Shown here: positions 2 to 32,000 of the stretch, in pieces
How positions within the stretch are numbered: the first letter of the stretch is position 1
How the letters are laid out: every line of letters begins with the position of its first letter
Assembly (NCBI RefSeq): GCF_000223395.1
Contig: NC_015931.1
Location: forward strand, 420,001-452,000
DNA: 32,000 nt
Source of the DNA: Pyrolobus fumarii 1A
GTDB lineage: Archaea; Thermoproteota; Thermoprotei_A; Sulfolobales; Pyrodictiaceae
Reading direction: 5' to 3'
Made by a program: the position numbers and the translations under genes
The notes under the pieces: model-generated
Database searches by the model: none
Seen by the model: the letters and a program-made list of their open reading frames with translations, nothing else
Told to the model about the DNA's origin: nothing

Positions 2-958
2 TTCTGGGTTGAAAGACTACGCCCAAGCAGCCTGAGCGACTTGATGATCAATGTAGAAGCGTGGGTGAAGACCGGTGTTGCGTTAAGTATCGAAGATAGG
101 GTTGTCATAGGCGCTAGGATGCGTACAAGAAACTTGGACGGCGGCCCCGGAGCCTATACCGTCCTCTACACGCCCCCTGAGATGCGAAAGGCTGATAACA
201 GGATGTGCATAGGAGTTTATGCTGAATTATTCTGTGAGGGTGATGAAAAACCTAAGAGGATTCTAGGTGTACTGGGTGGCGACCGCGGCATCGCTGAGGT
301 GGTAACATCCAAGCCTATCCTGTACGAAAGTCTCAAAGACGAGTGGAATAAGGTGCGACAGCTGACTAATGCGAGTGTAAGAAGCATACGTTGCAGCTTT
401 TATGCGCTACTTGCCTCGCCGTTACCCCTCACTGTGAAAGAGGCAGAGGAGCTAGTAAATAATGGCAAAGTCTTAGGCAACAACATGGAACAAAGGAATG
501 CAACCCTCGCGGCTACATCATCAAGACTCGCTTCGAGACTCGGAGTTAGCAGGATAGAGTTGAGCATAGAGACACCTAGTAGATGGGAGGTTAGAAAACT
601 CCTAGAAACCATACTAGAAGGTGAAGGGGCACTCAGAGAGAAACTCGAGAAGCTGTTACAGCCGCGGCTAACGGCAAGAGGCATAGGATATGACATTGCA
701 TATAATGCCCCAAGACCCTACCATGTGATGCTCGAACCTGGAGGGATAATAGCGATTGAGGTGAAGATACAAGACACTATAGGCTCTCAAGCGGATCTCC
801 CGGCTAGGCTCCTCGAGGCCATCTACGTCGAGGGTATAGCAGATGATAGCCTCGCTAAACTCGGCTGGGGTACGGTCATACCAACAACACTACCGAGATT
901 ACATCCGCTAGCAGCAACACAATACAAACCTAGGCCTATATGTGTACCCTATGTTTGA
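2..958 (+). CDS. cmr3: Cmr3-like type III-B RAMP subunit (Cas5 family), 5'-truncated by the window edge
   Basis: The frame is open from nt 2, with no stop before the listed ATG at 41, so the gene enters from upstream. The motifs appear in the order remembered for Cmr3: VLYTPPE, GVLGGDRGIAEV (LGGE-type), RGIGYDIAYNAPRPYHVMLEPGGIIAIEV (GWD..PKP..PxGSV-type), and a C-terminal KLGWGT glycine loop. This is motif recall, not a search. Confidence 0.6.
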   Translation, partial: FWVERLRPSSLSDLMINVEAWVKTGVALSIEDRVVIGARMRTRNLDGGPGAYTVLYTPPEMRKADNRMCIGVYAELFCEGDEKPKRILGVLGGDRGIAEVVTSKPILYESLKDEWNKVRQLTNASVRSIRCSFYALLASPLPLTVKEAEELVNNGKVLGNNMEQRNATLAATSSRLASRLGVSRIELSIETPSRWEVRKLLETILEGEGALREKLEKLLQPRLTARGIGYDIAYNAPRPYHVMLEPGGIIAIEVKIQDTIGSQADLPARLLEAIYVEGIADDSLAKLGWGTVIPTTLPRLHPLAATQYKPRPICVPYV

Positions 959-5697: not shown

Positions 5698-8600
5698 TCT
5701 TCAATCCGTTCTTGGTTGTTTCTTCAAAGCTCCATATTTTGTCCTCCAAGGCGAGATACTACCGCTTTCTTTCAATTCATTCCTGGTTGTCTCTCCACCC
5801 TTAGACCTACGCCAAATGCCTTACTTTCATACTAACCAACTTTCAATTCATTCTTTGTTGTTTCGTCCTCGCGGCGCTAGTGCTACTTGTGCCTGCTCTG
5901 GCGGCTAGCATCTTTCAATTCATTCTTTGTTGTTTCCGGCAAATGCAGCACGTTGTAGTGCCATACCTATCTGCATGGCCTTTCAATTCATTCTTTGTTG
6001 TTTCCTACAGCCAGTGGCGACGATGGACGATGTGAAGACGCTCCACCTTTCAATTCATTCTTTGTTGTTTCTCGTATACCTGGCGGAGTGGCTCCGTGCT
6101 CATTATCGTGTCTAGCTTTCAATTCATTCTTTGTTGTTTCCCGCTACGCCGCACTCGTTGACCTTCCGCCCCATCCCAAGAGTATCTTTCAATTCATTCT
6201 TTGTTGTTTCCCGTGCGGGCTGGGGAGGGGCGGGCGGAGACACCGAGGCACAGCCTTTCAATTCATTCTTTGTTGTTTCGAGCCGCAGCAGAGACTCCTC
6301 CTGGCCCGGCACCGGGTCTTTCAATTCATTCTTTGTTGTTTCCACTACGACGACTACCAGCCAACAAGCTTCGACAACGACCTTTCAATTCATTCTTTGT
6401 TGTTTCCTCACAGCACGTCACCCCACTACCATGACAACCACCCTGCCACTTTCAATTCATTCTTTGTTGTTTCACATAGTGCCGCTTGAGCGCATTGACG
6501 ACCCGGAGCGGTTCCTTTCAATTCATTCTTTGTTGTTTCCCGCCCTGCTGTACGCTATCAAACAAAATCCGAACATACTGCGCCTTTCAATTCATTCTTT
6601 GTTGTTTCGTGCGCATGCTCGTGCTAGTCACCCGCGGATTGCACTACTTCCTTTCAATTCATTCTTTGTTGTTTCTTTGGTATCGGTATTCTGCTTGGTG
6701 CAATTGCTAACGCCACCAACTTTCAATTCATTCTTTGTTGTTTCCTTATGCCCTCTTTTGCCCACTTGCGGAATAGCTCTATCCACTGACTTTCAATTCA
6801 TTCTTTGTTGTTTCTACGAGGCGCCCGACTGGCACCCGGAGGGAGTCACGGTAACCGTGCTTTCAATTCATTCTTTGTTGTTTCTGGGCAGCCGCCAAAG
6901 CCCGTCTATGCCAGCGGCGGCTACCTTTCAATTCATTCTTTGTTGTTTCTAGGCCTGCTAACACCCTGGCTCATACTAGGAGCAATGGCGACGGGCTACG
7001 TCTTTCAATTCATTCTTTGTTGTTTCCTGGCCCTGCAGGTCGATCACTGGGGTTATCGTGGTGTTCTTTCAATTCATTCTTTGTTGTTTCAAAAGATTGC
7101 TAAATGGCTCGAAGAGGACTTGTCTGACGAACTTTCAATTCATTCTTTGTTGTTTCGGGTTCATAGCATGGGCGGTTGGTATAGACGCCGAGATGGCCAG
7201 GCTTTCAATTCATTCTTTGTTGTTTCTAAGGGCGAGGAGCGCGAGGTTGACATGTGGGTCGTGCTTTCAATTCATTCTTTGTTGTTTCCTCGTCGCTACC
7301 CTCGATGAGGTACGGTGGTAGCATGAGCGCTGTCTTTCAATTCATTCTTTGTTGTTTCGCTCAGGTCCTCCGGTGCGTTCTCCAGCGCGTAGTTAACCTT
7401 TCAATTCATTCTTTGTTGTTTCGGGCGGACAGTTCTTCCACTACACGGTGTTGTCGTGGCTAACGCTTTCAATTCATTCTTTGTTGTTTCTATGCCTCGC
7501 GCCTTGGCCCAAGAACCTATATCGCGTACTCGTGCTTTCAATTCATTCTTTGTTGTTTCCCAGGATGGCCGCCGCGGCGGCAAAGATGTCCGCCTCTACC
7601 AACTTTCAATTCATTCTTTGTTGTTTCTCGGCTCGGCTTCCGTTCCTAGAGCGGCGGTATCGCCTAGAACTTTCAATTCATTCTTTGTTGTTTCTATGTA
7701 ACGCCGCGTTTCAGTGGCATGACGATGAGATGGGTGCTTTCAATTCATTCTTTGTTGTTTCACGAGAGCGGCGGCACGATATGCGAGTGTGAAGCCGACG
7801 ATGTCCTTTCAATTCATTCTTTGTTGTTTCACAGGGCCTCTCTACTCGACGCCAGGAAGCTGGTAAGGGTACTTTCAATTCATTCTTTGTTGTTTCCACG
7901 TTCTCCAGCCACTTTAGGAGCCACTCTTTCTTCTCCCCTTTCAATTCATTCTTTGTTGTTTCCCATGCGGCGGCTGCCGCTTCTCCACCAGCCGTCTTCA
8001 TACTTTCAATTCATTCTTTGTTGTTTCCTCGACCTTATCGCATGGCATGCAGTGAGCATGAGGAATGTCCTTTCAATTCATTCTTTGTTGTTTCCGCATA
8101 CCCTCTATACGCGGTGCGGGGATCCGGAAATGGTGGCTTTCAATTCATTCTTTGTTGTTTCCAGGCTTGGGTCGTGTCCACGCCCGAAGTCCGGTATCTT
8201 GCCAGGCTTTCAATTCATTCTTTGTTGTTTCACGTAGCTTAGGGTCGAACATGCCAACCGCTGGCTCTGTGTGCTTTCAATTCATTCTTTGTTGTTTCGA
8301 GGCTCTGGCAGATGGCCAAGGGCAGTGCTGGCAAGAAGCGGCTTTCAATTCATTCTTTGTTGTTTCCGTCCTTCGCGGGTTTACGCGTGGGGGTGCGTGG
8401 GATGGAGGCCGCCTTTCAATTCATTCTTTGTTGTTTCACACGCGTTTTTTCAACTTGCGCGACCTCGCACATCACGATCTGCCTTTCAATTCATTCTTTG
8501 TTGTTTCTTACGCGGTAGGCCCACGCGGAGGTGGTCGCGGGTGAAGCTTTCAATTCATTCTTTGTTGTTTCTATCGCGACAAACGTGCGCAGTGATGGAC

Positions 8601-10417
8601 GAATATACCTCCTTTCAATTCATTCTTTGTTGTTTCACAGTGGAGGTGAGCAAGCCATCCGACTGGTCTAGGAACAGGGCTACTTTCAATTCATTCTTTG
8701 TTGTTTCATGGGCTGTGTCGCGAGAACTGCTACCACGCGTGTATCATGGCATTGCTTTCAATTCATTCTTTGTTGTTTCCCGTGTGTGGCAAAAGTCGAA
8801 GGCAGAGGCGGCTACAAACCAACTTTCAATTCATTCTTTGTTGTTTCCTTGATTCTCAGCGCCACGAACGACGCTCTAGTATCGTCAATGACCTTTCAAT
8901 TCATTCTTTGTTGTTTCAGGCTGAACAGCTAGCACGGGGGAGGACACGAGCCATGAACGACTTTCAATTCATTCTTTGTTGTTTCGTGACGGGGTACCTA
9001 GCCACGGTTGTCACCTCCTAGATGTTCATACTTTCAATTCATTCTTTGTTGTTTCTCGCGGTAATAGTCCCCAGCGTCCGGGTCCACTGGTATCTCGACT
9101 TTCAATTCATTCTTTGTTGTTTCACTGAGGCCAGGGAGGAGCGGGAGCAGAAGCCCAGCGAGGCTTGCTTTCAATTCATTCTTTGTTGTTTCCGCGCGAC
9201 GTTATGGTCGTTCCCGCCGCGTCCGCCTCATCTTTCAATTCATTCTTTGTTGTTTCCTCGCTTCGAGAGGATAGTGATAAGGTGCGAGCCTATGACGCTT
9301 TCAATTCATTCTTTGTTGTTTCGTTAAACTAGAAATGAAAGCGCAAGGTTGTGAAAACGGGTGCTTTCAATTCATTCTTTGTTGTTTCCCCAGAAATATC
9401 TCGAACCGGAAATATCGAGCCCCGATAGGGTCACATTCCTTTCAATTCATTCTTTGTTGTTTCCTCACCCACCCGACCAGCGACCCATCACTAGCATTGT
9501 AGAACTCCCTTTCAATTCATTCTTTGTTGTTTCGTATTTGCACCACCAGCCGCAAGGCAGTATATGCCGCTTTTTCACTTTCAATTCATTCTTTGTTGTT
9601 TCCGCCTGGAGGTCTTCTGCGAGTGCAAGGGGTGTAGAGCCACTTTCAATTCATTCTTTGTTGTTTCATGATCTCAAATCGCGTCTCTTTACCGCCGCGA
9701 TCCTCTCCAGGCTTTCAATTCATTCTTTGTTGTTTCCATCAACGCTGTATCGTTCTTCCGCGATACGCCAAACCACTTGCTTTCAATTCATTCTTTGTTG
9801 TTTCGGATGTTACAACCCCAATAGTACCCAGTGTTGCATGTTCTCTTTCAATTCATTCTTTGTTGTTTCCGCGAGTGGTGGTTCGTGAAGGCGCGTCGCA
9901 TAACCGTGCTTTCAATTCATTCTTTGTTGTTTCCGCAGTTCCTGGCCACTGCCCGCCAGGTGCTAGAGAAGCTCGACTTTCAATTCATTCTTTGTTGTTT
10001 CTTTGGCTTCTCTTCATCCTCTAGACAATCACCGAGAATCAAGTCCTTTCAATTCATTCTTTGTTGTTTCATACATGTATGGGGTGGAGGTAGGTGATGC
10101 GACCAGTCATAGGCCCTTTCAATTCATTCTTTGTTGTTTCGCGCAAATGCTCGATACGTCCGCGGGAATATCCGCCTGTAGGCCTCCAGCTTTCAATTCA
10201 TTCTTTGTTGTTTCAAGTCCGGAATCTCGCTGGAGATGCCGAGGCGCGGTTTCGACTTTCAATTCATTCTTTGTTGTTTCACGGCCGCTGGCATATCCTC
10301 GCTCAGTAGCGTAGCTCCGATCAACTTTCAATTCATTCTTTGTTGTTTCCTGAAGGTTATGCTGGTGGTGTATGATGGTGGAATGCCAGTTACTTTCAAT
10401 TCATTCTTTGTTGTTTC
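5698..10417 (-). CRISPR. CRISPR array 1: 70 repeat units, 69 spacers
   Basis: There are 68 identical 25-nt repeats, CTTTCAATTCATTCTTTGTTGTTTC on the + strand, from 5840-5864 to 10393-10417. Two degenerate units lie at 5698-5722 and 5769-5793. Spacers are 37-52 nt and all look distinct by eye. Three observations indicate minus-strand transcription: the decayed units are at the left end, a conserved leader is at the right end, and the reverse complement ends in ATTGAAAG. Confidence 0.97.
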
Positions 10418-15939: not shown

Positions 15940-16102
15940 GACACTATGGCCGCGCGCATAACCGCGGGGGAGGACGCCGCTGCTCGAGACGAGCGTCCCG
16001 CTAGACCCGTCAAACCGAGACGAGGTTGGATAGCCGAGAGGAAGAGCACGGTGACCCCCAAGACGCGGCGAGGCGCTACACGCGGCCTCGTAGAACTATG
16101 GG

Positions 16103-17564: not shown

Positions 17565-18822
17565 GAAACAACCAAGAATGAATTGAAAGCTTCAGCGCGT
17601 AGTAGTGGCGCTCGAGACTCCTTGGCGAGTAGGAAACAACCAAGAATGAATTGAAAGTTCATCACGGTCGGTATGAGTGGGAGCGGCGGGTTTGGGAAAC
17701 AACCAAGAATGAATTGAAAGTCCAGGTGCTCGATGGCCCATAGTGGCGCCTCTACAAGCGCGAATGGAAACAACCAAGAATGAATTGAAAGAAGGATGCG
17801 TTCGAGAACTGATATCGCGTTGTCAATTTCCCTCCGGGGAAACAACCAAGAATGAATTGAAAGGAGAGGAAGGCTGCCCCGGACCTCGTCCGCTCTATCG
17901 TCGATGGAAACAACCAAGAATGAATTGAAAGGCTATCATCGCCTCCAGTTTGGCAATGATTTGGTCAGCCTGTGAAACAACCAAGAATGAATTGAAAGAA
18001 GCTTCTTGTACGTCTCAACGTCGGCCTCAACGCGTATTACTTTCGAAACAACCAAGAATGAATTGAAAGGCGACGTACGCGATGTGTGGCGACTCGTTGA
18101 ACTGTGTGTTCTGCCGAAACAACCAAGAATGAATTGAAAGTACAAACTCGTAGTTCTCTCCGCCACGGTTTATAACGATGAGAAACAACCAAGAATGAAT
18201 TGAAAGTGCCTCGAACCTCGCGGCGGCCCTGTTATGGTTCGTGGCGGTGTGAAACAACCAAGAATGAATTGAAAGAACTATGCTCTGTAGTAGCCTGGGA
18301 AGCTCCGCGCTCATCCCGCGAAACAACCAAGAATGAATTGAAAGTAGTACACGCAATACGGCATTGCACACCCACCACGCGTACACTCTAGAAACAACCA
18401 AGAATGAATTGAAAGTAGTGTGGCACGACAGTGGCTATGACTTAGTGCCGGGCTATAGCCAGAAACAACCAAGAATGAATTGAAAGGTGACACTATACAA
18501 CATCACGGACGTCGTGAAGAGGAGCGTGAAACAACCAAGAATGAATTGAAAGTTAACCCGGCCGCGCGCCGCGACGATCTCGAGATCGCGCCGGCGGAAA
18601 CAACCAAGAATGAATTGAAAGGTGATAAAGTACGGCGCGCAATACGGCACCGGGTTCTGGATTGAAACAACCAAGAATGAATTGAAAGTGATCTCCTGTG
18701 GGTTCGGTTTCTCCACCCTGATCTCGACATCAGAAACAACCAAGAATGAATTGAAAGGTAGCTGAGACCATAGCGTAGCCGGTAGAGTTGTGCCACGGGA
18801 AACAACCAAGAATGAATTGAAG
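17565..18822 (+). CRISPR. CRISPR array 2: 19 repeat units, 18 spacers
   Basis: The repeat is GAAACAACCAAGAATGAATTGAAAG, first at 17565-17589. The terminal unit at 18799-18822 lacks one A (...ATTGAAG). Spacers are 38-47 nt. The leader is on the left, and the ATTGAAAG 3' end is typical of Cas6-processed archaeal repeats. Confidence 0.97.
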
Positions 18823-18894
18823 ATGTTTAGGGTGGCTGGCTTGGTTGGTCTGGTTGCGTCCGCGTGTTTTGCCGGGTGGGTTTCTGCGTTGCGG

Positions 18895-22527: not shown

Positions 22528-24252
22528 TCACTGTGTGGTGTAGGGTAGCCTGGTTGTTAGTTTCTCGATTTTCACTGTTCTCTCGTCACCCTCAATTATT
22601 AGGGAGGCGTTGGAATCTTTCAATATCGTTGCTAGTATCGCGATGAGTTGAGCCGCGCCCGCTAATATGCGCAGGGCTTCTGTGATATCGCTTGTGTCGG
22701 CTTGGATCACTGTCTTTCCGGCGTTTGGTGTTAATAGTATGGCGCAGCCAGTGTCAGCCTCGCGCCAGGCGTTGAACGCTCCTTTATCGTTAGTCGCTAG
22801 TATGGTCTTTCCCCGGGCGCTTACCAGCATGTTTGCCTCGCATGTGCCGTGGCCCTCGACCCCCTGCTCTAGGAGCGCTTCGGCGGCCATGGAGGCTATG
22901 CCGGAGAGCACAGCCTTGATATCGCTTGTAGAGCGTTTAGCCGCCTCCATGTAGTTGGACAGCGCCTCTCGGTATGCGCACGCCGGGAACCGTAGCACGT
23001 TGGGCTCTCCCCTCCTCCCGCTTAGGGCCATTCTCCACGCTAGCTCGTAGATGTCGTTGTGTGCGCCGAGATAGGCTAGGTTGGTATCCCCCCACACGCG
23101 GTACCCTTTCCCGAGACTAGACTCGAGTATATCAACGAGGCTGGCGTGCTTCTTCACGAACTCCGGACAATTGGCATGCTCGCTCACCACTAGCCTCCAT
23201 AGCCCCGCGGCGACCGGCAGCTCCCGGAGCAACCCGAGCCACTTCCGGAAGCCATCGTCTTCGCAGGTGTTTCTCCCTCCATGCCCAGCGATAGGGTACG
23301 ACGCGCTGTAGAGTGTGCAAGCCGCGTCCTCGCTCTTAAAGAGCGTGTGCAGCTCCACACTGACAGTCTCCGGCTCGAAACCAAGCCCCTTCACTGTCAA
23401 CACGTGGATGCGTTGCACACCACTGCTCCTCTCACCCACCTCGATGTAGACTCTAGCCTCGTCTCTTGCTACCGAGTTCAGCAGCTGGTGCACAAGCCCC
23501 ACAGCTGTGTTGAGCGGTTGGAAGCCCCGGCCTCTCCTATACGAGAGTGACTCGAGGCGCTTGGGTACACGTATGCGCGTGGGGCTGGGGCTGGCTGCTT
23601 GACGCGATCCACTCACGATATCGAAGATGACTGGTTTTGCGAGGAGCCTTGGCACTCTCGGGTAGAAGCCCGTCTCGTCACTCACTGCCCACCAACCGAC
23701 CAGCCTATCAACGCCGTGCGACGAGGTGTACGTCAGTAACAGTTGGTGGCTACTAGCCGCCCTCACAGATATGGAGGCCGCTGTAGAGGCTATCGAGGAC
23801 ATCAGCTTAGTCCCGCCGGTGACATCGACTATAACGTCGTGCCCATTTTGCAGCTCTCGTTTCAATGTGCCCTGGAGCTCCTGGACAACCCCTCCGGGGT
23901 CACGCACAGCATGCGTCATCAGCTCGTCGATCACCACATTAGGCCCGCCCTCTATGAGCGCATCTAGCCTCCTCCTAGCATCCTCGGCGTACCTCCGCGA
24001 CACGTTAGTGGCCAGCAGCACCGCCCTATCATACCCTAGGACCTCGTAGGCAGCCGCTAATACTGATGTTATGGCGGCGGCGTTCGTGCCCACGGTGGCA
24101 TACAGGACTCGGCCCACGCGTATAGCCCCAGCCTTAACGCTACACACCCGCATATAACCATACTTAGGCTCTCCGCACAAGCGCCAAACCAGCATATACG
24201 CGTTGAGAGCTACCCGCCGCCTGGCCTCAGCACACGGGCCTGTTGTGCACAC
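22528..24252 (-). CDS. CARF-domain protein with C-terminal PIN-like nuclease domain
   Basis: CARF-like signatures are VLYATVGTNAAAI and DVIVDVTGGTKLMSSIA, at about aa 48-157. PIN-like motifs VWGDTN (D389), YREAL (E429), CEANMLVSA (E472) and ILATNDKGAF (D489) occur in canonical order. The probable start is the internal Met at nt 24153. Confidence 0.6.
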   Translation of the reverse strand: MCTTGPCAEARRRVALNAYMLVWRLCGEPKYGYMRVCSVKAGAIRVGRVLYATVGTNAAAITSVLAAAYEVLGYDRAVLLATNVSRRYAEDARRRLDALIEGGPNVVIDELMTHAVRDPGGVVQELQGTLKRELQNGHDVIVDVTGGTKLMSSIASTAASISVRAASSHQLLLTYTSSHGVDRLVGWWAVSDETGFYPRVPRLLAKPVIFDIVSGSRQAASPSPTRIRVPKRLESLSYRRGRGFQPLNTAVGLVHQLLNSVARDEARVYIEVGERSSGVQRIHVLTVKGLGFEPETVSVELHTLFKSEDAACTLYSASYPIAGHGGRNTCEDDGFRKWLGLLRELPVAAGLWRLVVSEHANCPEFVKKHASLVDILESSLGKGYRVWGDTNLAYLGAHNDIYELAWRMALSGRRGEPNVLRFPACAYREALSNYMEAAKRSTSDIKAVLSGIASMAAEALLEQGVEGHGTCEANMLVSARGKTILATNDKGAFNAWREADTGCAILLTPNAGKTVIQADTSDITEALRILAGAAQLIAILATILKDSNASLIIEGDERTVKIEKLTTRLPYTTQ

Positions 24253-24935: not shown

Positions 24936-24989
24936 CCAACAGAAAGACGACAGTCAAACCGCCAAATAAGAGTCCAACCCGCCTAGGAG

Positions 24990-25388
24990 GGCAGAACACC
25001 ACAATCATGACACCCTGTGGACGCATCCTCGGGGCAACGTGGTAACCCGCCAGCCCCACCGTTAGCAGATAGGCGCCCCGTGCAGCCAGGCTATGAGGTA
25101 CGCATCGATAGCCCTGCACCCTATTGCCGACGCTACCCTGAAGCCTCCTCGTCGACACTCCTACAGGGGCCCAGCACCCCGCGATTCCGGCCACCAGTCT
25201 CTCGGTAACGTCCCTCGGGTCGCAACACACTAGCAGCCCCGCGATCCCCGCCTTGGAGAGTAGGGGCTCGCACATGGCGAGGCCATCCACCCTCATGAAG
25301 AGTGTCTCGGCGAGCTTCGACCCGCGCCCGCCCCAACGTTGAACAAGTCGAACCCTAGAGGAGCGTCTATGACGACCGACCGGGTCAT
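24990..25388 (-). pseudogene. vapC: Frameshifted PIN (vapC) remnant
   Basis: The ATG at 25388-25386 overlaps the DUF104 stop as ATGA. It opens MTRSVVIDAPLGFDLFNVGAGAG and then stops at 25293. The sequence continues plausibly in another frame (GSKLAETLFMRVDGLAMCEPLLSKAGIAGLLV...). The 3' limit is uncertain. Confidence 0.45.
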
Positions 25389-25609
25389 CTCCTCTCGCTC
25401 ACAAACTCCTCTATAGCCTCCGGCGGCAGCCTCACACCAAACCTCCCCCTATAACACCACACAGGCTCAACGATACCCTCCTCAACCCTCCTGATCCCCA
25501 CCAGCACCTCTCTCCTCCCGCAACTCGGCTTCCCAAGCGGCTTCAACACGCCACCCTCAAACCGAGCCCTCACGACCCTAGCCACACTCCCCTCGCGTAA
25601 TCTACGCAA
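25385..25609 (-). CDS. vapB: DUF104/AF2212-like VapB-type antitoxin
   Basis: It carries the VVRARFEGGVLKPLGKP hallmark and is coupled by ATGA to the PIN remnant. Confidence 0.7.
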   Translation of the reverse strand: MRRLREGSVARVVRARFEGGVLKPLGKPSCGRREVLVGIRRVEEGIVEPVWCYRGRFGVRLPPEAIEEFVSERR

Positions 25610-25780
25610 TCATAATAGAAGTCTATCAGGTTATGCTCCCATGCAAACTCCTCTTGCACAAGGAGCTTATCGCGCCCTCTGTCGTCATGCGGGGCGTGTT
25701 AACCGGTATAAGCATCGATATAGTGTCGTGCCCTGTCTTCCATCTACAACTCGGCTGGCGCTTCTAGGAGGCGTTTAGGA

Positions 25781-26800
25781 TTGACACCGTGGAGGGATTG
25801 CGGGTGGAGGACCGGGCTGGGTACCTGCTTCTACAACCGGAGGGTTGAGACCGAGCGCCTTTCTAGTCTCCTGGATGGTTTCAGCCTCGTTGTTCTCGTG
25901 GGGCCGCGGAATGCTGGTAAGAGCGAGCTTGCAAGATATACGCTCCTCCGCGTGAAGCGCGTCAAGCCGATGATAGTTGATGCTAGGAGGGTGGTCGCGA
26001 GGGCCGGGCTGGGCGGGCGACTAGAGCCTCTCGGCGAGCGTGTGGTCGGCACAGTGGCGAGGTTTGTTGAGGAGAAGGCTGGGCTAGGTGCGCTACTCGA
26101 CCTGGTCTCCAGTGTCTATCGGGAACTTGCTCTCGACGAGTATGTCGTGATAGACGAGGTTCACCTGGTTGCGCGCGACACTCTCCGCGAGCTTGAGGCT
26201 CTCGCTAAGCTGCTCCGCTTCTACCCGGAGTATAAGAAGTGGAAGATGGTAGTCACTTGTAGCGAGGGCTTCCTGCTGGCGCAGGGTCTGGCCGATAGGC
26301 TGGACGGGTACGGCGCCCGTGTTCTCCTCCTCGAGCCTCTAGGCGAGGAGGATGCGCGTGCACTCTACGAGGAGTACGTGGAGAGGAGAGGGTGCAGGCT
26401 AGGCTGGAGCCTCTACTGGGGGCTTATCGGCGGACTACCCGGCTACCTCCCAGACTACTGCGCGATGAACCCGGACGAGCTCAGACGATGGGTGCACGAG
26501 AGGCTCTCTAGCCTCGTATCCGCGCTCCTGGAGGCCGCCAGGGAGGCCAGGGTAGACCCCGCAGAGGTACTCCGCGCCGCACACGAGCTGCTAGTGGAAG
26601 GGCAACAGGTGCTAACGCCGCTGCACCTGACCCTAAGCAGGGTACTCGTACACACAAACATAGCGTACCAAGCCGGGCTCCAGCTAAAACCACAGCTCAG
26701 GGTATACACCGTCGCACTAGCACTATGGGCGTCACGCGGCTACAACGAACCACCCAACCCCCAAGACGTGATCAAAGCAGCCAAAGAAGACACGGTGTGA
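25781..26800 (+). CDS. Archaeal AAA+ ATPase (Arch_ATPase-like)
   Basis: FYNRRVETERLSSLL is followed by Walker A VVLVGPRNAGKSELA. Walker B reads YVVIDEVHLV, and IGGLPGYL is comparable to TGGNPRYL in the paralogue. Confidence 0.75.
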   Translation: MTPWRDCGWRTGLGTCFYNRRVETERLSSLLDGFSLVVLVGPRNAGKSELARYTLLRVKRVKPMIVDARRVVARAGLGGRLEPLGERVVGTVARFVEEKAGLGALLDLVSSVYRELALDEYVVIDEVHLVARDTLRELEALAKLLRFYPEYKKWKMVVTCSEGFLLAQGLADRLDGYGARVLLLEPLGEEDARALYEEYVERRGCRLGWSLYWGLIGGLPGYLPDYCAMNPDELRRWVHERLSSLVSALLEAAREARVDPAEVLRAAHELLVEGQQVLTPLHLTLSRVLVHTNIAYQAGLQLKPQLRVYTVALALWASRGYNEPPNPQDVIKAAKEDTV

Positions 26801-26991
26801 CACCCTCACAACCCACTACACATGCTACATCCCCTGGACAACCACGCCGAGCCTAGCACCGCGCCAACGGCACTCCTATACCGTCTAGACGCTTACGCCC
26901 TCACCCGGCAACCCACACATCACAACGTTAGAGAACGGCACCGATAGAGTACCCTTCCCCAGGCTCTAGGCTCGCACAACGGGCGACTCTA

Positions 26992-27609
26992 CTACGCTCT
27001 CTGTTTACCTCCGAAGCACCTGGTGTATACCGGTTTGCGCCCCGCTTCTATCTCTTCGAGCAGCTGGTGTGCCTCCATCACTACCGTATCTGCTAGTCGG
27101 AGTATCCTCTCCCACCTTATCCTTTCAAGCGCGTCTAGAAACGCTTGTGTGTCCAATATGTTCTCCTCGCGGGCGAGAAGAAGGAGGCCCACAGTTCCGG
27201 TAACAGCTGTGTTCCTCTTAGGGAGCAGCTTCGCCGCCTTTGTCCTCGCTCTCTTATCGTCAAGTACTAGGCAGATGCGTGTGCGACCCCTCCTGGAATA
27301 GTATAGTGCAATTGCGATTGCGTGCTTCTCTCCCTCGCCTAAACCTACAGCTGACTGCTCCACCACCTCTAGGTACTCCAATTGAGCATCAACAATGTAT
27401 GCCGCATACTCGTTAGGGTTGCATTCGAAATTCGGATGTTGTATCTCTTTGTAAACGCTGCGCGGTATGACAATAGTATAACCCTTCTCTGTTAGCTTAT
27501 GCACCAGGTTAACCATGCCTAGTTTGCAGAGGGTAACTAGCGTGCTCGTATCCAGTATTATGATGCGGTTAGCCGCTCTACTCCTCGAATAGCTTATCGC
27601 TCGTGACAA
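26992..27609 (-). CDS. PIN-like protein of the COG2405/DUF3368 type
   Basis: It carries IIILDTSTLVTLCKLGMVNLV and LVLDDKRARTKAAKL...VTGTVGLLLLAREENIL, matching the remembered pattern D..aRr.A...GTlGvLl.Ak. Confidence 0.7.
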   Translation of the reverse strand: MSRAISYSRSRAANRIIILDTSTLVTLCKLGMVNLVHKLTEKGYTIVIPRSVYKEIQHPNFECNPNEYAAYIVDAQLEYLEVVEQSAVGLGEGEKHAIAIALYYSRRGRTRICLVLDDKRARTKAAKLLPKRNTAVTGTVGLLLLAREENILDTQAFLDALERIRWERILRLADTVVMEAHQLLEEIEAGRKPVYTRCFGGKQRA

Positions 27610-28219
27610 GGCCTCCTAGCTTCCTCCGCGCGATATCAACAAACTCTAAAACGTTCATGCCAGCCACCCTTGCGGCCAGAGTAACTGAGATTAAGCCGCG
27701 CTCGTATAGCTTGAGGGCTGTCTCTAGACGCAGACGTTTATCCAGGAGTATATGCTTCTTCTCCGACTCCTCATAGCCACCATACACGCTATATACGAAG
27801 GCTAGTAGCTCCCTATCGTCCAGCTCATTGAATATCTCGAGAGTCTCCCTTAGCAAGGATGCGAGGTTGCCCCGCTTTTCTACAGCTTGCCACGCCCTCT
27901 CCCCCTCGTTAATGTCACGCAGCCTCACACCCTCCCTGCTGCTCTCCGTTACACCCTTCTTCTCCAACATCTCCAGCTCGTGCTCCACATCCTCACTCCA
28001 CGCGCCAAAACGGTATGGTATGAACTCTACATCTTGTACAGCTCGCGGCGCGTGACTCGAGACTATGTAGAGGAGTTTCATGAGACGCAACCTTGAGAGT
28101 TTGCCACCAGCGGTGTACAACGCCGCAAGTATGAGGTCACGTAGCGTGACCCTCTCGCCAGATCCACGTGCAACACGGCGAAGAGCGTCTCTGCTCAGCC
28201 TTGCCACGCTACTCGCCAA
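27578..28219 (-). CDS. UPF0175-type antitoxin domain fused to an N-terminal Panacea/DUF4065-like domain
   Basis: The C-terminal ALKLYERGLISVTLAARVAGMNVLEFVDIARRK is UPF0175-like. The N-terminal LRLMKLLYIVSS...FIPYRFGAWSEDVEHELEML resembles the SocA/Panacea pattern (KLLY...W.yGP). It overlaps the PIN gene by 32 nt. Confidence 0.55.
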   Translation of the reverse strand: MASSVARLSRDALRRVARGSGERVTLRDLILAALYTAGGKLSRLRLMKLLYIVSSHAPRAVQDVEFIPYRFGAWSEDVEHELEMLEKKGVTESSREGVRLRDINEGERAWQAVEKRGNLASLLRETLEIFNELDDRELLAFVYSVYGGYEESEKKHILLDKRLRLETALKLYERGLISVTLAARVAGMNVLEFVDIARRKLGGLVTSDKLFEE

Positions 28220-28265
28220 GTACCATTAGGACTGCATTTACTTAAAAACGACTACCGTACGTACG

Positions 28266-28562
28266 GTGGGCCGTGATAGCTGGTTAATACTCCATAGGGT
28301 TACACAAGTCCAATCTGATCATATCTGTATAGTATTGGCGCAGGTGGTGATTAACAGGATGGAGTTTAGCGATATCCATGTTGGTTCTAGGTTGCTAAGG
28401 TCTCCCGGCGTCCTTGTCGATCACAGGGTGTATGAGAGGTTCTGCGTGGATCCGGGTGACAAAAGATATCGAGAAGTATTGCAACAAACTCCTTATCAAT
28501 ACATACTAGATTCGAAGTATATACGAGTCTGGCGTCGTTTACGAGCCTGGAGAAGGCTGTAA
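28266..28562 (+). CDS. Hypothetical protein, possibly the 5' part of a frameshifted gene
   Basis: The ORF ends in an unnatural W/R-rich tail (VWRRLRAWRRL). The frame of the next ORF is already open from 28460. Confidence 0.3.
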   Translation: MGRDSWLILHRVTQVQSDHICIVLAQVVINRMEFSDIHVGSRLLRSPGVLVDHRVYERFCVDPGDKRYREVLQQTPYQYILDSKYIRVWRRLRAWRRL

Positions 28563-28588
28563 AGCGACTTGAGAAGGTAGTTGAGCGG

Positions 28589-29059
28589 ATGGACGAAGGC
28601 TCTTTGCCCGAGAAGCCAGTAGTGTGGATCTTGCACTTTGATAGCTTGAATGATGTTAGTGCGAGTAGTGTAGCTAAGCTTGTAACTGATGTCCTAGCGT
28701 CATATGATAACATTGGTATCGCGCCTGGTTTCGGTGTAAAAGTGGCCCCCGAGGAAGGAGCAGAGATCGTAACGATGCTCCTCGAGAGTGACGCCTCGCA
28801 CAGAGTATTCATGCCTATGCCTATCGTGTTCTTTCGTGATAACGTAGCGAAGGAAAGGTATCTGAACTCTCTCACCGATATGCTCTCCAGCGACATCGAT
28901 GTGGCCGGTATGTGCTTTGACGCCGAGGGAGCTTACTTCGGCTCATCTCGCGTTACACGAATTGCAGCTGAGCTTCTAGGGATGCGCATCCAGGCCAATG
29001 GTGCAATGCCGCTAGTAGCTGTGAACATGAGAACGTCGAGAAAGGCTAGAATCGCGTGA
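28589..29059 (+). CDS. Hypothetical protein
   Basis: The composition is protein-like and the opposing 169-aa ORF is an S/T-rich shadow. No family was recognised. Confidence 0.45.
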   Translation: MDEGSLPEKPVVWILHFDSLNDVSASSVAKLVTDVLASYDNIGIAPGFGVKVAPEEGAEIVTMLLESDASHRVFMPMPIVFFRDNVAKERYLNSLTDMLSSDIDVAGMCFDAEGAYFGSSRVTRIAAELLGMRIQANGAMPLVAVNMRTSRKARIA

Positions 29060-29282
29060 ATAGCATTAGCACCCCTCTTCCGCATCGACGCTGTTGGGTT
29101 GAGTCACGCAAAGGCACCTTGGGCGAAGAGGCAACCACCCAATCCCACGGTCATAGATGTGGTTGTAACGCTTCATGTGTGATGCGCCGCGTCCGGTGCA
29201 CCCTGGGGTGGAGGAGGTACTAGCTGCAGCAGTGCCTAGAGGCTGCATGTCGGGCTAGTGGTGGCCCGAGAGGCGGGGTTAC

Positions 29283-29852
29283 ATGGTACTTTTCCCTGCG
29301 TGCCGCTATGTTACAAGGCGAGGGTCCTGTGGCATGATGGCGCTCACAGTGGATGATGGGAGTGTGGGGCGGCGTAGCGGTGTGAGGGAGGTGGAGCGTC
29401 ACCGTGGTAACTTGTTATGGGCGTTGGAGCTGGCTGAAAGGGAGTTGGGTACCACGCCGAGGCAGGCGTTCAACAAGGTGTTTCTAGCGTGGCGCGAGGC
29501 TATAGCCTATATAGCGGCGCGGTTGCTCGCCGATCTCCGTCTCTCCAAGGTTGTGCGGGACCAGCTCTCCCGCCTACCCACTCCAGCCTACGAGGATGGA
29601 GAGGTGAGGGTCACCACGAGCAACGCGGTGAAGACTCTGAAGACCCTGCTTAGGGTGTGTAGCGAGGCTGGTTGCGGGCGGCGCGTGGTCGAGGCTCTCA
29701 GGTTGCTGTGGGAGGTGCGAGACACCGCCTTTAAGCTCCACACGGCGTTTTACGAGGGGCCGGAGCACGCTGGCTTCGAGGATGAGATGGAGGCTGTAGA
29801 GGCGACAGGGAGGCTCCTGGAGAAGATCCGTCGCTTGGTGGAGACGCTCTAG
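29283..29852 (+). CDS. Divergent PaREP1-like protein
   Basis: It carries FNKVFLAWREAIAYIAARL and AFKLHTAFYEGPEHAGF, with a C-terminal helix EATGRLLEKIRRLV. The start is probably internal. Confidence 0.5.
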   Translation: MVLFPACRYVTRRGSCGMMALTVDDGSVGRRSGVREVERHRGNLLWALELAERELGTTPRQAFNKVFLAWREAIAYIAARLLADLRLSKVVRDQLSRLPTPAYEDGEVRVTTSNAVKTLKTLLRVCSEAGCGRRVVEALRLLWEVRDTAFKLHTAFYEGPEHAGFEDEMEAVEATGRLLEKIRRLVETL

Positions 29853-31002: not shown

Positions 31003-31488
31003 CTAGAGTGTGATTGGTTTTGGTGGTGTTCTTGTCGTCTTGTCGCATAGGGTCTCCGCCCTGTTTATCCTCTGCTGCTCTTCGTGCGGGATTGGCGTGT
31101 ATATCGTCGTGTATCCTCTCCTAACCGAGTACATGGCTGCTATTATGGAGGCTAGTTTGCGGCCCCCGGTGACGTCTATTATGGCGTGTTTGGCGCCTCT
31201 CGTTGCCTCCTCTAGCTTCTCGAGGAGCTCGTTTATGCCCTCCTCGTCCGTGACGTCGTCAACCCTCAGCGCGTGCACGTGTATCGTGGTGCTTGGCGCT
31301 AGTGGTGGTTTGTCCGTGCCGGGGCATGGGCAGGTCCTGGCTATCTCTATCGCCTCGTGTACTGGTGCCCGCCTAGTCGCCACGATGTGAACCTCTGTGG
31401 GTGTAGCTGCGTTGGCACGTAGCGCGCAGAGCACCGTGTGGAGGACTCCCGGAGACATCCCGAGTAGCACGACGAGCCTTGTGCCCAC
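31003..31488 (-). CDS. Minimal stand-alone CARF-domain protein (Cas_NE0113-like)
   Basis: The N-terminus reads LVVLLGMSPGVLHTVLCAL and IIDVTGGRKLASIIAAMYS follows. Both are signatures of the NE0113-type CARF Rossmann fold. At 161 aa there is no room for an effector domain. Confidence 0.6.
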   Translation of the reverse strand: MGTRLVVLLGMSPGVLHTVLCALRANAATPTEVHIVATRRAPVHEAIEIARTCPCPGTDKPPLAPSTTIHVHALRVDDVTDEEGINELLEKLEEATRGAKHAIIDVTGGRKLASIIAAMYSVRRGYTTIYTPIPHEEQQRINRAETLCDKTTRTPPKPITL

Positions 31489-31614: not shown

Positions 31615-32000
31615 ATGGAGGGTCATGAGCCTCTCCTGCCTCTCTATGCTGGTGTTGGCGTCGCGGCTGTGAGGGTGTTCGGGTGGAGTGTTGGGGCGGA
31701 TGGCGTCCCGGTCTCTTGGGACCCGTTGGAGTGGATGGCTTGGCTCCGTTGGCCCCGCGAGGCTGTGGAGGCGTTCTCGACGCTCTATGGCCGCGTGTCA
31801 AGCGGGTGCGAGCGTGTCTCCCTGGTCTACCTGGACGCGGGGTCTCGCTCGTCGCCAGAGGCCCGCCGGAGCGTCTTCGCCGTGAAGCTCGCGGTGGTGC
31901 ACCGGGTGTCGGTGGGTGGCGTTGTTGAGGAGCGTGTTGTGCACCCGTTGTTGAGGGGTGAGGGTGGGGCGGGGCTCCCTCTGCTCGTGGGCCGCGGGGG
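31615..32000 (+). CDS. Open reading frame running off the right edge, unknown product
   Basis: My translation from the ATG at 31615 (alternative GTGs at 31570 and 31576) has no stop through nt 32000: MEGHEPLLPLYAGVGVAAVRVFGWSV...VVHPLLRGEGGAGLPLLVGRG. It is absent from the ORF track because it lacks a stop. It is divergent from the CARF gene. Confidence 0.4.
   Translation, partial: MEGHEPLLPLYAGVGVAAVRVFGWSVGADGVPVSWDPLEWMAWLRWPREAVEAFSTLYGRVSSGCERVSLVYLDAGSRSSPEARRSVFAVKLAVVHRVSVGGVVEERVVHPLLRGEGGAGLPLLVGRG

What the first reader, a model, noticed from the sequence alone, without database searches (positions are those of the whole stretch)
31003..31488. Effector-less 161-aa CARF protein: candidate ring nuclease or cOA sponge
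**Seen in sequence**
- The ORF carries NE0113-type CARF motifs: GMSPGVLHTVL and IIDVTGGRKLAS.
- It has only about 40 aa after the CARF core.
- It is divergently arranged with an unlisted ORF that leaves the window.

**Established knowledge**
- Stand-alone CARF proteins such as Crn1 in Sulfolobus degrade cA4 to reset type III signalling.

**Inference**
- Together with the CARF-PIN gene 7 kb away and cmr3 at the left edge, this could be the off-switch of a cOA pathway.
- Its small size is unusual.
Basis: partly seen in the sequence, partly recalled or inferred. Interest (0 to 1): 0.55.

Follow-up and report, generated by a model that had tools for sequence, protein, structure and literature searches.

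The report
Short-lid Crn1-like ring nuclease, HerA-linked
This small archaeal gene very probably encodes an enzyme that destroys the cyclic-tetra-adenylate alarm signal of a type III CRISPR system, and its subfamily is almost always encoded beside a HerA-type motor ATPase and an uncharacterised partner protein, a link that appears unreported.

Summary
The ORF is real: window 31003-31488, minus strand, 161 aa, identical to Pyrolobus fumarii Pyrfu_0485. It is a stand-alone CARF protein of the minor clade CARF_m13, the clade of the Crn1 ring nucleases Sso2081 and Sis0455 (PADLOC profile E 1.2e-44). The AlphaFold model (pLDDT 94.9) matches those two structures best.

The residues needed for cA4 binding and cleavage are conserved: S12, T38, D78 and G109-R110-K111. 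About 21 residues of the Sulfolobus "lid" are deleted, including helix alpha6. This deletion is the norm for a small subfamily of 154-170 aa, so the small size is not an oddity.

A Cmr module with an intact Cas10 GGDD cyclase motif, two CRISPR arrays and a CARF-domain effector candidate lie in or next to the window.

The new point is context. In 9 of 10 informative loci the gene sits beside a HerA-like ATPase and a roughly 530-aa protein of no known family. Three gene orders occur, two with start/stop overlap, and some loci are far from cas genes. The Sulfolobales Crn1 locus lacks this pair. The protein may therefore be the cA4-handling component of a three-gene module. No activity was tested.

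The parts
31003..31488 (-). Gene for the 161-aa stand-alone CARF protein (Pyrfu_0485): CARF_m13 clade, Crn1-like, short-lid subfamily.
   Evidence: ORF. Identity to Pyrfu_0485. CARF_m13 E 1.2e-44. cas_Crn1 E 1.1e-12. AF2 pLDDT 94.9. Foldseek top hits Sis0455/Sso2081.
31447..31461 (-). Motif I, G10-M11-S12-P13-G14, equivalent to Sso2081 G9-T10-S11. It positions the ribose 2'-OH and the scissile phosphate.
   Evidence: Mapping. S12 is present in 19 of 21 family sequences, and G10, P13 and G14 in 21 of 21. Role taken from PMC10018336.
31156..31176 (-). Motif II, D105-V-T-G-G109-R110-K111, equivalent to Sso2081 G104-R105-K106. R binds cA4 and K stabilises the transition state.
   Evidence: T107, G108, G109, R110 and K111 are invariant in 23 of 23 sequences. 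Roles taken from PMC10018336 and PMC9638899.
31255..31257 (-). Codon of D78, equivalent to D75 of Sso2081/Sis0455, which positions the motif II arginine.
   Evidence: Invariant in 23 of 23 sequences. Mapping. D75 mutants lose cA4 binding (PMC9638899, PMC10018336).
31015..31089 (-). Shortened insertion between strands beta5 and beta6 (residues 134-158). It keeps helix alpha5 (135-143) and a short turn with C148. It lacks about 21 residues present in Sis0455 (end of alpha5, eta1, alpha6, C155).
   Evidence: AF2 secondary structure. Alignment with the Sis0455-type P0032. Lid description in PMC9638899 and PMC10018336.
31489..31614 (.). 126-nt divergent intergenic region shared by the CARF gene and the partner gene.
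   Evidence: The equivalent spacers in L007, L009 and L019 are only 15-28 nt.
31615..32000 (+). 5' part of the 545-aa 'partner' gene, which runs off the window. In the genome it is followed by a 677-aa HerA-like ATPase gene.
   Evidence: Orthologues sit next to CARF_m13 genes in other loci, E 1e-36 to 5e-52.
2..958 (+). 3' two-thirds of cmr3. The type III-B Cmr module, with Cas10/Cmr2 and RAMP genes, lies just left of the window.
   Evidence: L005. PADLOC Cmr3 E 8e-11. Cas10 GGDD at residue 783 and HD at residue 25.
5769..10417 (+). CRISPR array 1: 69 repeats of CTTTCAATTCATTCTTTGTTGTTTC.
   Evidence: 0 matches expected by chance..
17565..18823 (-). CRISPR array 2: 19 repeats in the opposite orientation, with a one-base repeat variant (T to G).
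22528..24252 (-). 574-aa protein (550 aa by the public gene call) with an N-terminal CARF domain and an unassigned C-terminal half. It is a candidate cOA-activated effector.
   Evidence: PADLOC Csx1/Csm6 CARF E 7e-9 over residues 49-173. Full-length homologue directly upstream of the CARF_m13 gene in P. delaneyi, E 1e-17. No PIN profile hit.

Best explanation
Pyrfu_0485 is a stand-alone CARF protein of the CARF_m13 clade. It is a short-lid relative of the Crn1 ring nucleases Sso2081 and Sis0455.

**Most likely mechanism (by homology, not shown here).**
- It forms a homodimer whose two CARF domains make one symmetric pocket for cyclic tetra-adenylate (cA4).
- R110, held in place by D78, together with K111 on top of helix alpha4, binds the phosphodiester ring.
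- Motif I (G10-M11-S12) positions a ribose 2'-OH for in-line attack.
- K111 stabilises the pentavalent intermediate.
- cA4 is cut without metal, in two steps, to two A2>P molecules.
- This removes the signal made by the neighbouring Cmr complex, whose Cas10 has an intact GGDD motif. CARF effectors such as the 574-aa protein 7 kb away are thereby shut off.

**What differs from Sso2081.** The lid keeps helix alpha5 but has lost alpha6. That could change how tightly cA4 is enclosed and how fast it is cut.

**Link to the HerA module (inferred, less certain, about 0.5).** This subfamily is co-inherited, and in several genomes co-transcribed, with a HerA-like ATPase and a roughly 530-aa partner protein. 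It therefore probably serves that module specifically, as its cA4 off-switch or timer.

The stated confidence of 0.6 refers to the cA4-binding ring-nuclease identity and role.
For: **Family and fold.**
- PADLOC CARF_m13: E 1.2e-44, nearly full length.
- NCBIfam cas_Crn1 is the best hit.
- Sequence hits to the PDB structures 7yhl, 7ygh and 7z55 at about 1e-10.
- The AF2 model has pLDDT 94.9 and pTM 0.90, with a six-stranded Rossmann-like core.
- The top 11 Foldseek hits are all Sis0455 or Sso2081, TM 0.67-0.77. Other CARFs score at least four orders of magnitude worse in E-value.

**Residues.**
- T38, D78, G109, R110 and K111 are invariant in 23 of 23 relatives.
- S12 is present in 19 of 21.
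- Tyr is present at the Y133 position in 18 of 23.
- These are the residues whose mutation abolishes or reduces cA4 binding or cleavage in Sso2081 and Sis0455 (PMC10018336, PMC9638899).

**Signalling context.**
- A Cmr module with Cas10 GGDD and HD motifs, two CRISPR arrays and a CARF effector candidate.
- Relatives lie directly beside type III modules in L012 and L018.

**HerA link.**
- The partner, with HerA wherever the contig extends far enough, is adjacent in 9 of 10 informative loci, in three gene orders.
- GTGA start/stop overlaps occur in L013 and L020.
- L024 was not used to build the models and still shows the trio.
- Divergences are congruent across loci: Mantel r 0.75-0.80, p about 6e-4.
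Against: - No activity, ligand binding or dimerisation was tested. Everything mechanistic is by homology at 23-29% identity to the characterised enzymes.
- The NCBIfam Crn1 equivalog cut-off is not reached (48 vs 125 bits).
- T10, E17 and, in P. fumarii, Y133 of Sso2081 are replaced by M11, by H17 or T18 depending on the alignment, and by Q138.
- Half the lid is missing. Lid closure contributes to catalysis in Sis0455 (E41G/R134G mutant, PMC9638899).
- The gene is about 30 kb from the Cmr genes.
- The congruent divergence with HerA and the partner is also what shared vertical descent alone would give.
- The partner has no recognisable fold or cOA sensor domain. How cA4 would act on the HerA module is therefore unknown.
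Confidence: 0.6

Rival explanations
1. **Split effector.** The CARF dimer is the cA4 sensor subunit of a three-protein machine. cA4-induced jaw closure, as seen in Sis0455, would switch on the HerA-like ATPase and its partner, a putative nuclease. Slow cleavage of cA4 by the CARF would act as a built-in timer. In this reading the protein is primarily an activator, not a general off-switch.
For: - Linkage is tight and survives rearrangement in 9 of 10 loci, with translational-coupling-type GTGA overlaps (HerA to CARF) in L013 and L020 and a 3-nt spacer (CARF to partner) in L024.
- The trio occurs with no cas gene seen within about 7-8 kb in L013, L017 and L024. It therefore behaves as a unit.
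- Neither HerA nor the partner shows any CARF or SAVED hit. The stand-alone CARF is thus the only candidate sensor.
- The Sulfolobales Crn1 locus has no such neighbours.
- HerA/NurA pairs are known type III-linked accessory genes of unknown role (PMC6546367).
Against: - I know of no precedent for a free-standing CARF protein activating a separate enzyme.
- All ring-nuclease residues are retained, which a pure sensor would not need.
- No interaction was tested.
- The partner's fold is unknown.
- L018 has the CARF gene beside a Cmr operon, with no HerA in the sequence available.
- In P. delaneyi two other genes separate the CARF gene from the pair.
Confidence: 0.25
2. **General housekeeping ring nuclease.** The HerA/partner neighbourhood would be incidental: shared residence in a defence island, inherited together within one archaeal lineage.
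For: - All loci come from one narrow group (Pyrodictiaceae, Desulfurococcales and related Thermoprotei MAGs).
- Congruent divergence is what simple vertical descent would give.
- The window is a dense island of toxin-antitoxin and CRISPR genes.
Against: - Three different gene orders with immediate adjacency, including overlapping stop and start codons, are hard to maintain without selection.
- The flanking genes differ completely between loci: IleRS, OsmC/peptidase, Cas4/radical SAM, Csx1.
Confidence: 0.2
3. **cOA sponge or buffer.** The protein binds cA4, or another cyclic oligoadenylate, tightly but does not turn it over. It would set a threshold for signalling by sequestration.
For: - The shortened lid and the replacement of T10, E17 and Y133 could impair catalysis while R110, K111 and D78 keep binding.
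- Sis0455 and Sso2081 bind cA4 with nM affinity and are slow enzymes (PMC9638899, PMC10018336).
Against: - S12 and K111 are conserved across the family.
- Single mutants at the T10 or Y133 positions, and T10 or E17 substitutions, had little effect on activity in Sso2081 or Sis0455 (PMC10018336, PMC9638899).
- No CARF-fold sponge is known to me.
Confidence: 0.07

Closest known systems
Crn1 short stand-alone ring nucleases Sso2081 (S. solfataricus) and Sis0455 (S. islandicus), CARF_m13 clade; PDB 7YGH, 7YHL, 7Z55
   Same: - Same clade profile and same fold.
- Same stand-alone CARF architecture, with an insertion between beta5 and beta6.
- Same motif I Ser, T37, D75 and motif II G-R-K.
- Conserved Cys pair equivalent to C56-C164.
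- Found in a crenarchaeal type III context.
   Different: - Only 23-29% identity, below the NCBIfam equivalog cut-off.
- About 21 residues of the lid are deleted (alpha6, C155).
- A new conserved C21.
- T10 becomes M, E17 becomes H or T, and Y133 becomes Q in P. fumarii.
- Encoded beside a HerA-like ATPase plus partner, which the Sulfolobales-type locus L021 lacks.
Crn1 long stand-alone ring nucleases Sso1393 and Sis0811 (CARF7 plus wHTH)
   Same: CARF ring nucleases with the conserved Ser and Lys. A CARF7 protein is encoded two genes from the CARF_m13 gene in P. delaneyi.
   Different: A different CARF clade. They carry a C-terminal wHTH domain, have no beta5-beta6 insertion and no motif II Arg (PMC9638899).
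Csx14, Csx15, Csx16 and Csx20 small ring-nuclease candidates (Hoikkala et al. 2025, PMC12409355)
   Same: Small (<250 aa) CARF-like type III accessory proteins. Csx14 is considered part of the Crn1 family. One relative here (P0022) is labelled Csx14 by JGI.
   Different: TIGR03642 Csx14 scores only 28.5 bits against a cut-off of 90. Csx16 and Csx20 have a derived fold and are mostly bacterial.
Type III 'co-evolved' HerA/NurA accessory pair (Shah et al. 2019, clusters 57 and 58; PMC6546367)
   Same: A HerA-family ATPase plus a second large protein, encoded with crenarchaeal type III systems. PADLOC 'HerA Type III coevolved' hits the P. fumarii HerA-like protein at E 1e-20.
   Different: - The better HerA hits are other defence-type HerA models (E 7e-42).
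- The partner is not recognised as NurA by Pfam, NCBIfam, PADLOC or a PDB profile search.
- A fixed link to a CARF_m13 gene is not mentioned in the papers I could read.
Two-gene HerA defence systems (Sir2-HerA, DUF4297-HerA; PMC11291478)
   Same: A HerA hexameric ATPase paired with an effector enzyme in one operon. Defence-type HerA profiles are the best matches.
   Different: Those are bacterial systems with no cyclic-nucleotide sensor. Here a CARF protein is a third, conserved component.

Membership tests
CARF_m13 minor clade of the CARF superfamily (Makarova et al. 2020; clade of Sso2081 and Sis0455) | Significant, near full-length match to the clade profile | tested here: met
   PADLOC PDLC01980 'CARF_m13--CARF': E 1.2e-44, 150.2 bits, residues 3-149 against profile 2-142/168. 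The next best CARF model scores E 7.6e-10.
CARF_m13 minor clade of the CARF superfamily (Makarova et al. 2020; clade of Sso2081 and Sis0455) | CARF (six-stranded Rossmann-like) fold, closest to the solved CARF_m13 structures | tested here: met
   AF2 pLDDT 94.9, pTM 0.90, strands b1-b6. Foldseek ranks 1-11 are all Sis0455 or Sso2081, E 2e-9 to 9e-8, TMq 0.67-0.77.
Crn1 ring nuclease, short type (SSRN: Sso2081, Sis0455) | Score above the curated equivalog cut-off of NCBIfam NF040581 cas_Crn1 | tested here: not met
   48.0 bits against a cut-off of 125, although it is the best-scoring family at E 1.1e-12. I therefore file the protein as Crn1-like within CARF_m13, not as an equivalog of Sso2081.
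Crn1 ring nuclease, short type (SSRN: Sso2081, Sis0455) | Motif I G-T-S, with the Ser hydroxyl at the scissile phosphate | tested here: met
   G10-M11-S12. Ser is present in 19 of 21 relatives. The Thr position is variable (M, L, A, T, R). T10A and T10G have no effect on cleavage in Sso2081 and Sis0455 (PMC10018336, PMC9638899).
Crn1 ring nuclease, short type (SSRN: Sso2081, Sis0455) | Motif II G-R-K, with the Arg specific to the short type, plus the Asp (D75) that positions the Arg | tested here: met
   G109-R110-K111 and D78 are invariant in 23 of 23 sequences.
Crn1 ring nuclease, short type (SSRN: Sso2081, Sis0455) | Two-helix C-terminal insertion (alpha5, eta1, alpha6, eta2) between beta5 and beta6, forming the lid and tied to the core by two disulfides (C55-C155, C56-C164) | tested here: not met
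   An insertion is present but only half-size. It has alpha5 (135-143) and a short turn. About 21 residues are absent, including alpha6 and C155. C55/C148 correspond to C56/C164. C53 loses its partner, and a new invariant C21 appears. This is a subfamily-wide trait.
Crn1 ring nuclease, short type (SSRN: Sso2081, Sis0455) | Homodimer with a composite cA4 pocket on the two-fold axis | not testable with these tools
   Only monomer prediction was available. The alpha4 helix (K111-G125), which forms the dimer core in Sis0455, is conserved in sequence character.
Crn1 ring nuclease, short type (SSRN: Sso2081, Sis0455) | Metal-independent cleavage of cA4 to A2>P | not testable with these tools
   Needs biochemistry.
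Crn1 ring nuclease, short type (SSRN: Sso2081, Sis0455) | Encoded with a cOA-producing type III CRISPR-Cas system | tested here: met
   A Cmr module with Cas10 GGDD lies about 30 kb away in the same CRISPR region. Relatives lie directly beside Cas10/Csm or Cmr operons in L012 and L018. Three loci show no cas gene within 7-8 kb.
   22.9 bits against 23.0, covering only profile positions 1-116 of 208. TIGR02584 cas_NE0113 scores 14.8 bits against 80.65.
Csx14 (TIGR03642) | Score at or above the curated cut-off | tested here: not met
   28.5 bits against 90.35.
HerA/NurA type III accessory pair (for the neighbouring genes) | HerA-family ATPase with Walker A and B motifs | tested here: met
   PADLOC HerA models up to E 6.9e-42. 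NCBIfam HerA models at E about 1e-34, far below the equivalog cut-offs, so this is not the housekeeping HerA. Walker A is GQTGSGKT and Walker B is LVVVEEAH.
HerA/NurA type III accessory pair (for the neighbouring genes) | Partner protein is a NurA-family nuclease | tested here: not met
   No NurA hit, or any other meaningful hit, in Pfam (8 members, E up to 10), NCBIfam, PADLOC or a PDB profile search. The single-sequence AF2 model was unusable at pLDDT 37.8. The motifs VYLDAGSR, KHGPL and GVTEDxxGSR look NurA-like to me, but that is an untested impression.

The most novel reading that the evidence does not exclude
The short-lid CARF_m13 protein is the detachable cA4 sensor and timer of a three-component effector made of a CARF dimer, a HerA-like hexameric ATPase and a roughly 530-aa putative nuclease. 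In this cOA-activated machine the sensor domain is a separate polypeptide instead of being fused to the effector. That would give the long-known but unexplained type III-associated HerA-type gene pairs a signalling input. It would also make them a mobile module that can plug into any cA4-producing system in trans.
Probability: 0.25. Interest if true: 0.8.

Novelty: new variant of a known kind. Interest (0 to 1): 0.55.

Why it matters
A further crenarchaeal Crn1 homologue would by itself be routine. Two things add value.

First, this is a natural "half-lid" version of the Sso2081/Sis0455 enzyme. It is conserved as a subfamily and appears to have a compensating cysteine change. That makes it a ready-made test of what the lid contributes to cA4 enclosure and turnover rate.

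Second, the subfamily is almost always encoded with a HerA-like ATPase and an uncharacterised partner. HerA-type pairs have been listed as type III accessory genes since 2012-2019 without any known connection to cOA signalling. A dedicated cA4-binding and cleaving protein in the same operon offers a concrete, testable link. Either the HerA module is cA4-controlled, or it needs local protection from cA4-activated nucleases.

Tried and rejected
- **Homologue search for the 545-aa partner**. Low-complexity words swamped the candidate list and only the protein's own fragment (P0006) was returned.
- **Partner family profile against PDB sequences.** No hit at E up to 10.
- **Pfam, NCBIfam and PADLOC on the partner.** Nothing was found, including all 8 members at E up to 10. 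The NurA idea could not be supported.
- **Structure prediction of the partner.** The single-sequence run on P0006 gave pLDDT 37.8, which is unusable, so I ran no fold search on it.
- **Metagenome scans.** The 8-sequence partner alignment had no usable pattern. The 4-sequence alignment found no relatives. The CARF scan added one new locus, L024.
- **Genome-collection scan.** It found only two loci and did not return P. fumarii itself.
- **Literature.**
  - No paper mentions Pyrfu_0485 or P. fumarii together with CARF.
  - Makarova et al. 2020 is not held.
  - The supplements of the two census papers are not held.
  - I therefore cannot exclude that the HerA link is noted there.
- **Truncated pseudogene.** I considered and rejected this. 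The short C-terminus is shared by 23 relatives, with a conserved terminal beta-strand and C148.
- **'CARF-PIN fusion' as stated.** I did not accept this. The only PIN detected by profile is a separate VapC gene.
- **ORFs inside the CRISPR arrays.** The ORFs listed at 5995-9888 and 17489-18809 are artefacts of the repeats.
Full report
**1. The observation**

The ORF at window 31003-31488 (minus strand, GTG start, 161 aa) is present as described. Its product is identical over its full length to Pyrfu_0485 of Pyrolobus fumarii 1A. NCBI calls it a hypothetical protein and UniRef calls it a CRISPR-associated protein. Both quoted motifs are there: GMSPGVLHTVL at residues 10-20 and IIDVTGGRKLAS at residues 103-114. 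The start codon fits the family, because relatives begin 0-6 residues before the first beta-strand, RLVVLLG.

**2. What the protein is**

Profile and sequence searches:
- Pfam places it just under the Cas_NE0113 threshold (22.9 vs 23 bits).
- NCBIfam's best family is the Crn1 ring-nuclease equivalog (E 1.1e-12). At 48 bits it is far below the 125-bit cut-off.
- The decisive profile is PADLOC's model of the CARF_m13 minor clade: E 1.2e-44, 150 bits, near full length. The next CARF model scores 35 orders of magnitude worse.
- CARF_m13 is the clade of the short stand-alone ring nucleases Sso2081 and Sis0455 (PMC9638899, introduction; PMC12409355, methods).
- phmmer against PDB sequences finds exactly those proteins at about 1e-10, aligned over residues 4-143.

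Structure:
- An AlphaFold2 model built on a 23-sequence alignment is very confident, with mean pLDDT 94.9 and pTM 0.90. It shows a six-stranded Rossmann-like core.
- Its first 11 Foldseek matches in the PDB are all Sis0455 or Sso2081 chains, with E 2e-9 to 9e-8 and TM 0.67-0.77.
- Other CARF domains (Cdn1, Can2, Csm6, Cam1, Card1, Cad1) follow at E above 5e-5.
- The refutation condition 'no CARF fold' is therefore not met.

**3. Active-site anatomy**

Structure-function work on Sso2081 and Sis0455 defines the key features (PMC10018336, PMC9638899):
- motif I, G9-T10-S11;
- T37 and E17, which contact the bases;
- D75, which positions R105;
- motif II, G104-R105-K106;
- Y133 on the lid;
- an insertion between beta5 and beta6 (alpha5, eta1, alpha6, eta2) that closes over cA4 and is tied to the core by disulfides C55-C155 and C56-C164.

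Aligning the window protein with a Sis0455-type sequence (P0032) and intermediates gives the following mapping.

| Sso2081/Sis0455 | Pyrfu_0485 | Conservation in relatives |
|---|---|---|
| G9-T10-S11 | G10-M11-S12 | S12 in 19 of 21 |
| T37 | T38 | invariant, 23 of 23 |
| D75 | D78 | invariant, 23 of 23 |
| G104-R105-K106 | G109-R110-K111 | invariant, 23 of 23 |
| Y133 | Q138 | Tyr in 18 of 23; Gln in the P. fumarii clade |
| E17 | H17 or T18, depending on the alignment | H17 in 19 of 21 |
| C56-C164 | C55-C148 | C55 in 23 of 23, C148 in 22 of 23 |
| C55-C155 | C53; C155 deleted | C53 in 23 of 23 |

The substitutions at T10, E17 and Y133 are those that, singly or as the E17/T37 pair, had little effect on activity in the Sulfolobus enzymes. 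The residues whose loss abolishes binding or cleavage (D75, R105, K106) are all kept.

The main structural difference is a deletion of about 21 residues, covering the end of alpha5, eta1 and alpha6 and including C155. The lid is therefore reduced to one helix (135-143) plus a short turn that carries C148. C53 has lost its disulfide partner. A cysteine found only in the short forms, C21, appears and is present in 22 of 22 sequences that cover the position. This may be a compensating pair, but I could not measure distances.

This deletion is not a truncation artefact. All 23 relatives share it, and their lengths cluster at 154-170 aa. An exhaustive phmmer search of 1.84 billion representative proteins finds only 12 clusters, so the family is small.

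**4. Signalling context in P. fumarii**

- The ORF at the left edge of the window is the 3' part of cmr3 (PADLOC Cmr3 E 8e-11). It follows a 1081-aa Cas10/Cmr2 that has an intact GGDD cyclase motif (residue 783) and an HD motif (residue 25). RAMP genes lie divergent from them.
- The window carries two CRISPR arrays, at 5769-10417 (69 repeats) and 17565-18823 (19 repeats, opposite orientation), with none expected by chance.
- Two Cas6-like genes lie between the arrays.
- The '7 kb away' gene (22528-24252) has a clear N-terminal CARF domain (E 7e-9) and an unassigned C-terminal half. No profile finds a PIN domain in it. DTN and T(N/S)D motifs in its C-terminus look PIN-like to me, but that is only an impression. 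The PIN gene detected next to it is a separate VapC.

A cA4-type pathway with something to switch off is therefore plausible in this genome.

**5.

The divergent ORF that leaves the window starts at 31615 and encodes a 545-aa protein. A 677-aa HerA-like ATPase gene follows it. I fetched loci for relatives of the CARF protein down to 33% identity and scanned all loci with HMMs built here.

| Locus | Arrangement |
|---|---|
| P. fumarii | HerA and partner divergent from CARF |
| L011/L019 | HerA and partner divergent from CARF |
| L007 | partner divergent from CARF; contig ends |
| L009 | partner divergent from CARF; contig ends |
| L013 | partner, HerA, CARF co-directional; GTGA stop/start overlap |
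| L017 | partner, HerA, CARF co-directional |
| L020 | partner, HerA, CARF co-directional; GTGA overlap |
| L024 | CARF, partner, HerA co-directional; 3-nt spacer |
| P. delaneyi | pair about 3 kb away, beside Csx1, a CARF7 protein, a homologue of the window's 574-aa protein, and Csa1-Cas1-Cas2-Cas4 |
| L018 (exception) | CARF precedes a Cmr operon; only 1.5 kb of upstream sequence available |

- That is 9 of 10 informative loci, in three gene orders. L024 was not used to build the models.
- The outer flanks are unrelated from locus to locus: IleRS, OsmC/peptidase, Cas4/radical SAM, Csx1.
- L013, L017 and L024 show no cas genes within 7-8 kb.
- The Sulfolobales-type Crn1 locus (L021) has Csx1 and RAMP genes nearby but no HerA or partner.
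- Pairwise divergences of CARF, partner and HerA are congruent across seven loci, with Mantel r 0.75-0.93 and permutation p about 6e-4. This shows co-inheritance. It does not by itself prove a functional link, because shared species phylogeny gives the same pattern.

The HerA-like proteins keep Walker A and B motifs. They match defence-type HerA profiles best (E 7e-42) and the 'type III coevolved' HerA profile partially (E 1e-20). They score far below the housekeeping HerA equivalogs.

The partner family has invariant D74, R133, E141, H159-G-P-L, N210, E239, S244 and R245. It has no hit in Pfam, NCBIfam, PADLOC or PDB sequence profiles. The only structure prediction I was allowed to run, on a single sequence, failed with pLDDT 37.8. 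Its fold is unresolved, and a NurA-like nuclease is my untested guess.

**6. Mechanism**

- *Shown:* membership of CARF_m13, the CARF fold, conservation of the ring-nuclease residues, a cyclase-competent type III system nearby, and tight conserved linkage to a HerA-like ATPase and its partner.
- *Inferred by homology:* a homodimer binds cA4 on its two-fold axis through R110, K111 and D78 and cleaves it without metal to A2>P, terminating signalling.
- *Inferred from context, with less confidence:* the enzyme works specifically with the HerA module, as its off-switch or timer.

The main rival is that it is primarily the module's cA4 sensor, making a split effector. Weaker rivals are an unrelated housekeeping ring nuclease or a non-catalytic sponge.

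**7. Comparison with what is known, and novelty**

The protein works like Crn1 and belongs to the same clade. It is not an equivalog of Sso2081: it falls below the curated cut-off and has half a lid.

HerA/NurA pairs are already listed as type III 'co-evolved' accessory genes in crenarchaea (PMC6546367). In the papers I could search and read, I found no mention of a fixed association between such a pair and a CARF_m13 ring nuclease. The key classification paper (Makarova et al. 2020) and the relevant supplements were not available, so prior notice cannot be excluded.

I rate the finding a new variant of a known kind. As another Crn1 it is ordinary. As a natural lid-deletion variant embedded in a conserved three-gene module it is moderately interesting.

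Noticed in passing
window 5769-10417 (+) and 17565-18823 (-): There are two CRISPR arrays, of 69 and 19 repeats, in opposite orientation. Their 25-nt repeats differ by one base (CTTTCAATTCATTCTT[T/G]GTTGTTTC). Many ORFs listed at 5995-9888 and 17489-18809 are artefacts of these arrays.
   Followed up: partly
window 11017-11991 (-) and 14107-15078 (-): Two paralogous Cas6-like genes of about 323 aa lie between the arrays. Pfam CRISPR_Cas6 scores E 5.5e-3 and 8.6e-6.
   Followed up: no
window 22528-24252 (-); L015 6268-7971: The 574-aa protein has an N-terminal CARF domain and an unassigned C-terminal half of about 400 aa. A full-length homologue (26% identity, E 1e-17) sits immediately upstream of the CARF_m13 gene in Pyrodictium delaneyi. 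The DTN and T(N/S)D motifs look PIN-like, but no profile supports that.
   Followed up: partly
window 1800-5700, 12276-16850, 24266-29852: The window is a dense run of toxin-antitoxin-type genes. It includes VapC/AF2212-like, HepT/MntA, two HEPN/nucleotidyltransferase pairs, PaREP1 copies, MazE/VapC and UPF0175/DUF3368-PIN. The CRISPR region doubles as a defence and addiction island.
   Followed up: no
P0011 (237 aa, JGI metagenome protein): This CARF_m13 relative carries a C-terminal extension with a hydrophobic, probably transmembrane, segment. It lacks the motif I Ser (Gln instead) and C148. It may be a membrane-associated sensor or effector, not a ring nuclease.
   Followed up: no
L015 5269-6243 (P. 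delaneyi): A 324-aa CARF7 protein (PADLOC CARF7 E 4.5e-138) belongs to the clade of the long Crn1 ring nucleases. It is encoded two genes upstream of the CARF_m13 gene, so this locus has both Crn1-type clades plus Csx1.
   Followed up: no
L002 5414-9088: In one older read-set assembly of P. fumarii, the HerA-like and partner genes are each split in two. This is most likely a set of sequencing frameshifts, because three other assemblies have them intact.
   Followed up: no
L011/L019, genes downstream of the CARF gene: A Cas4-like nuclease, a radical-SAM protein with viperin-like PADLOC hits (E 5.6e-20) and a TmcA-like acetyltransferase/helicase follow the CARF gene in a Desulfurococcales MAG.
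   Followed up: no
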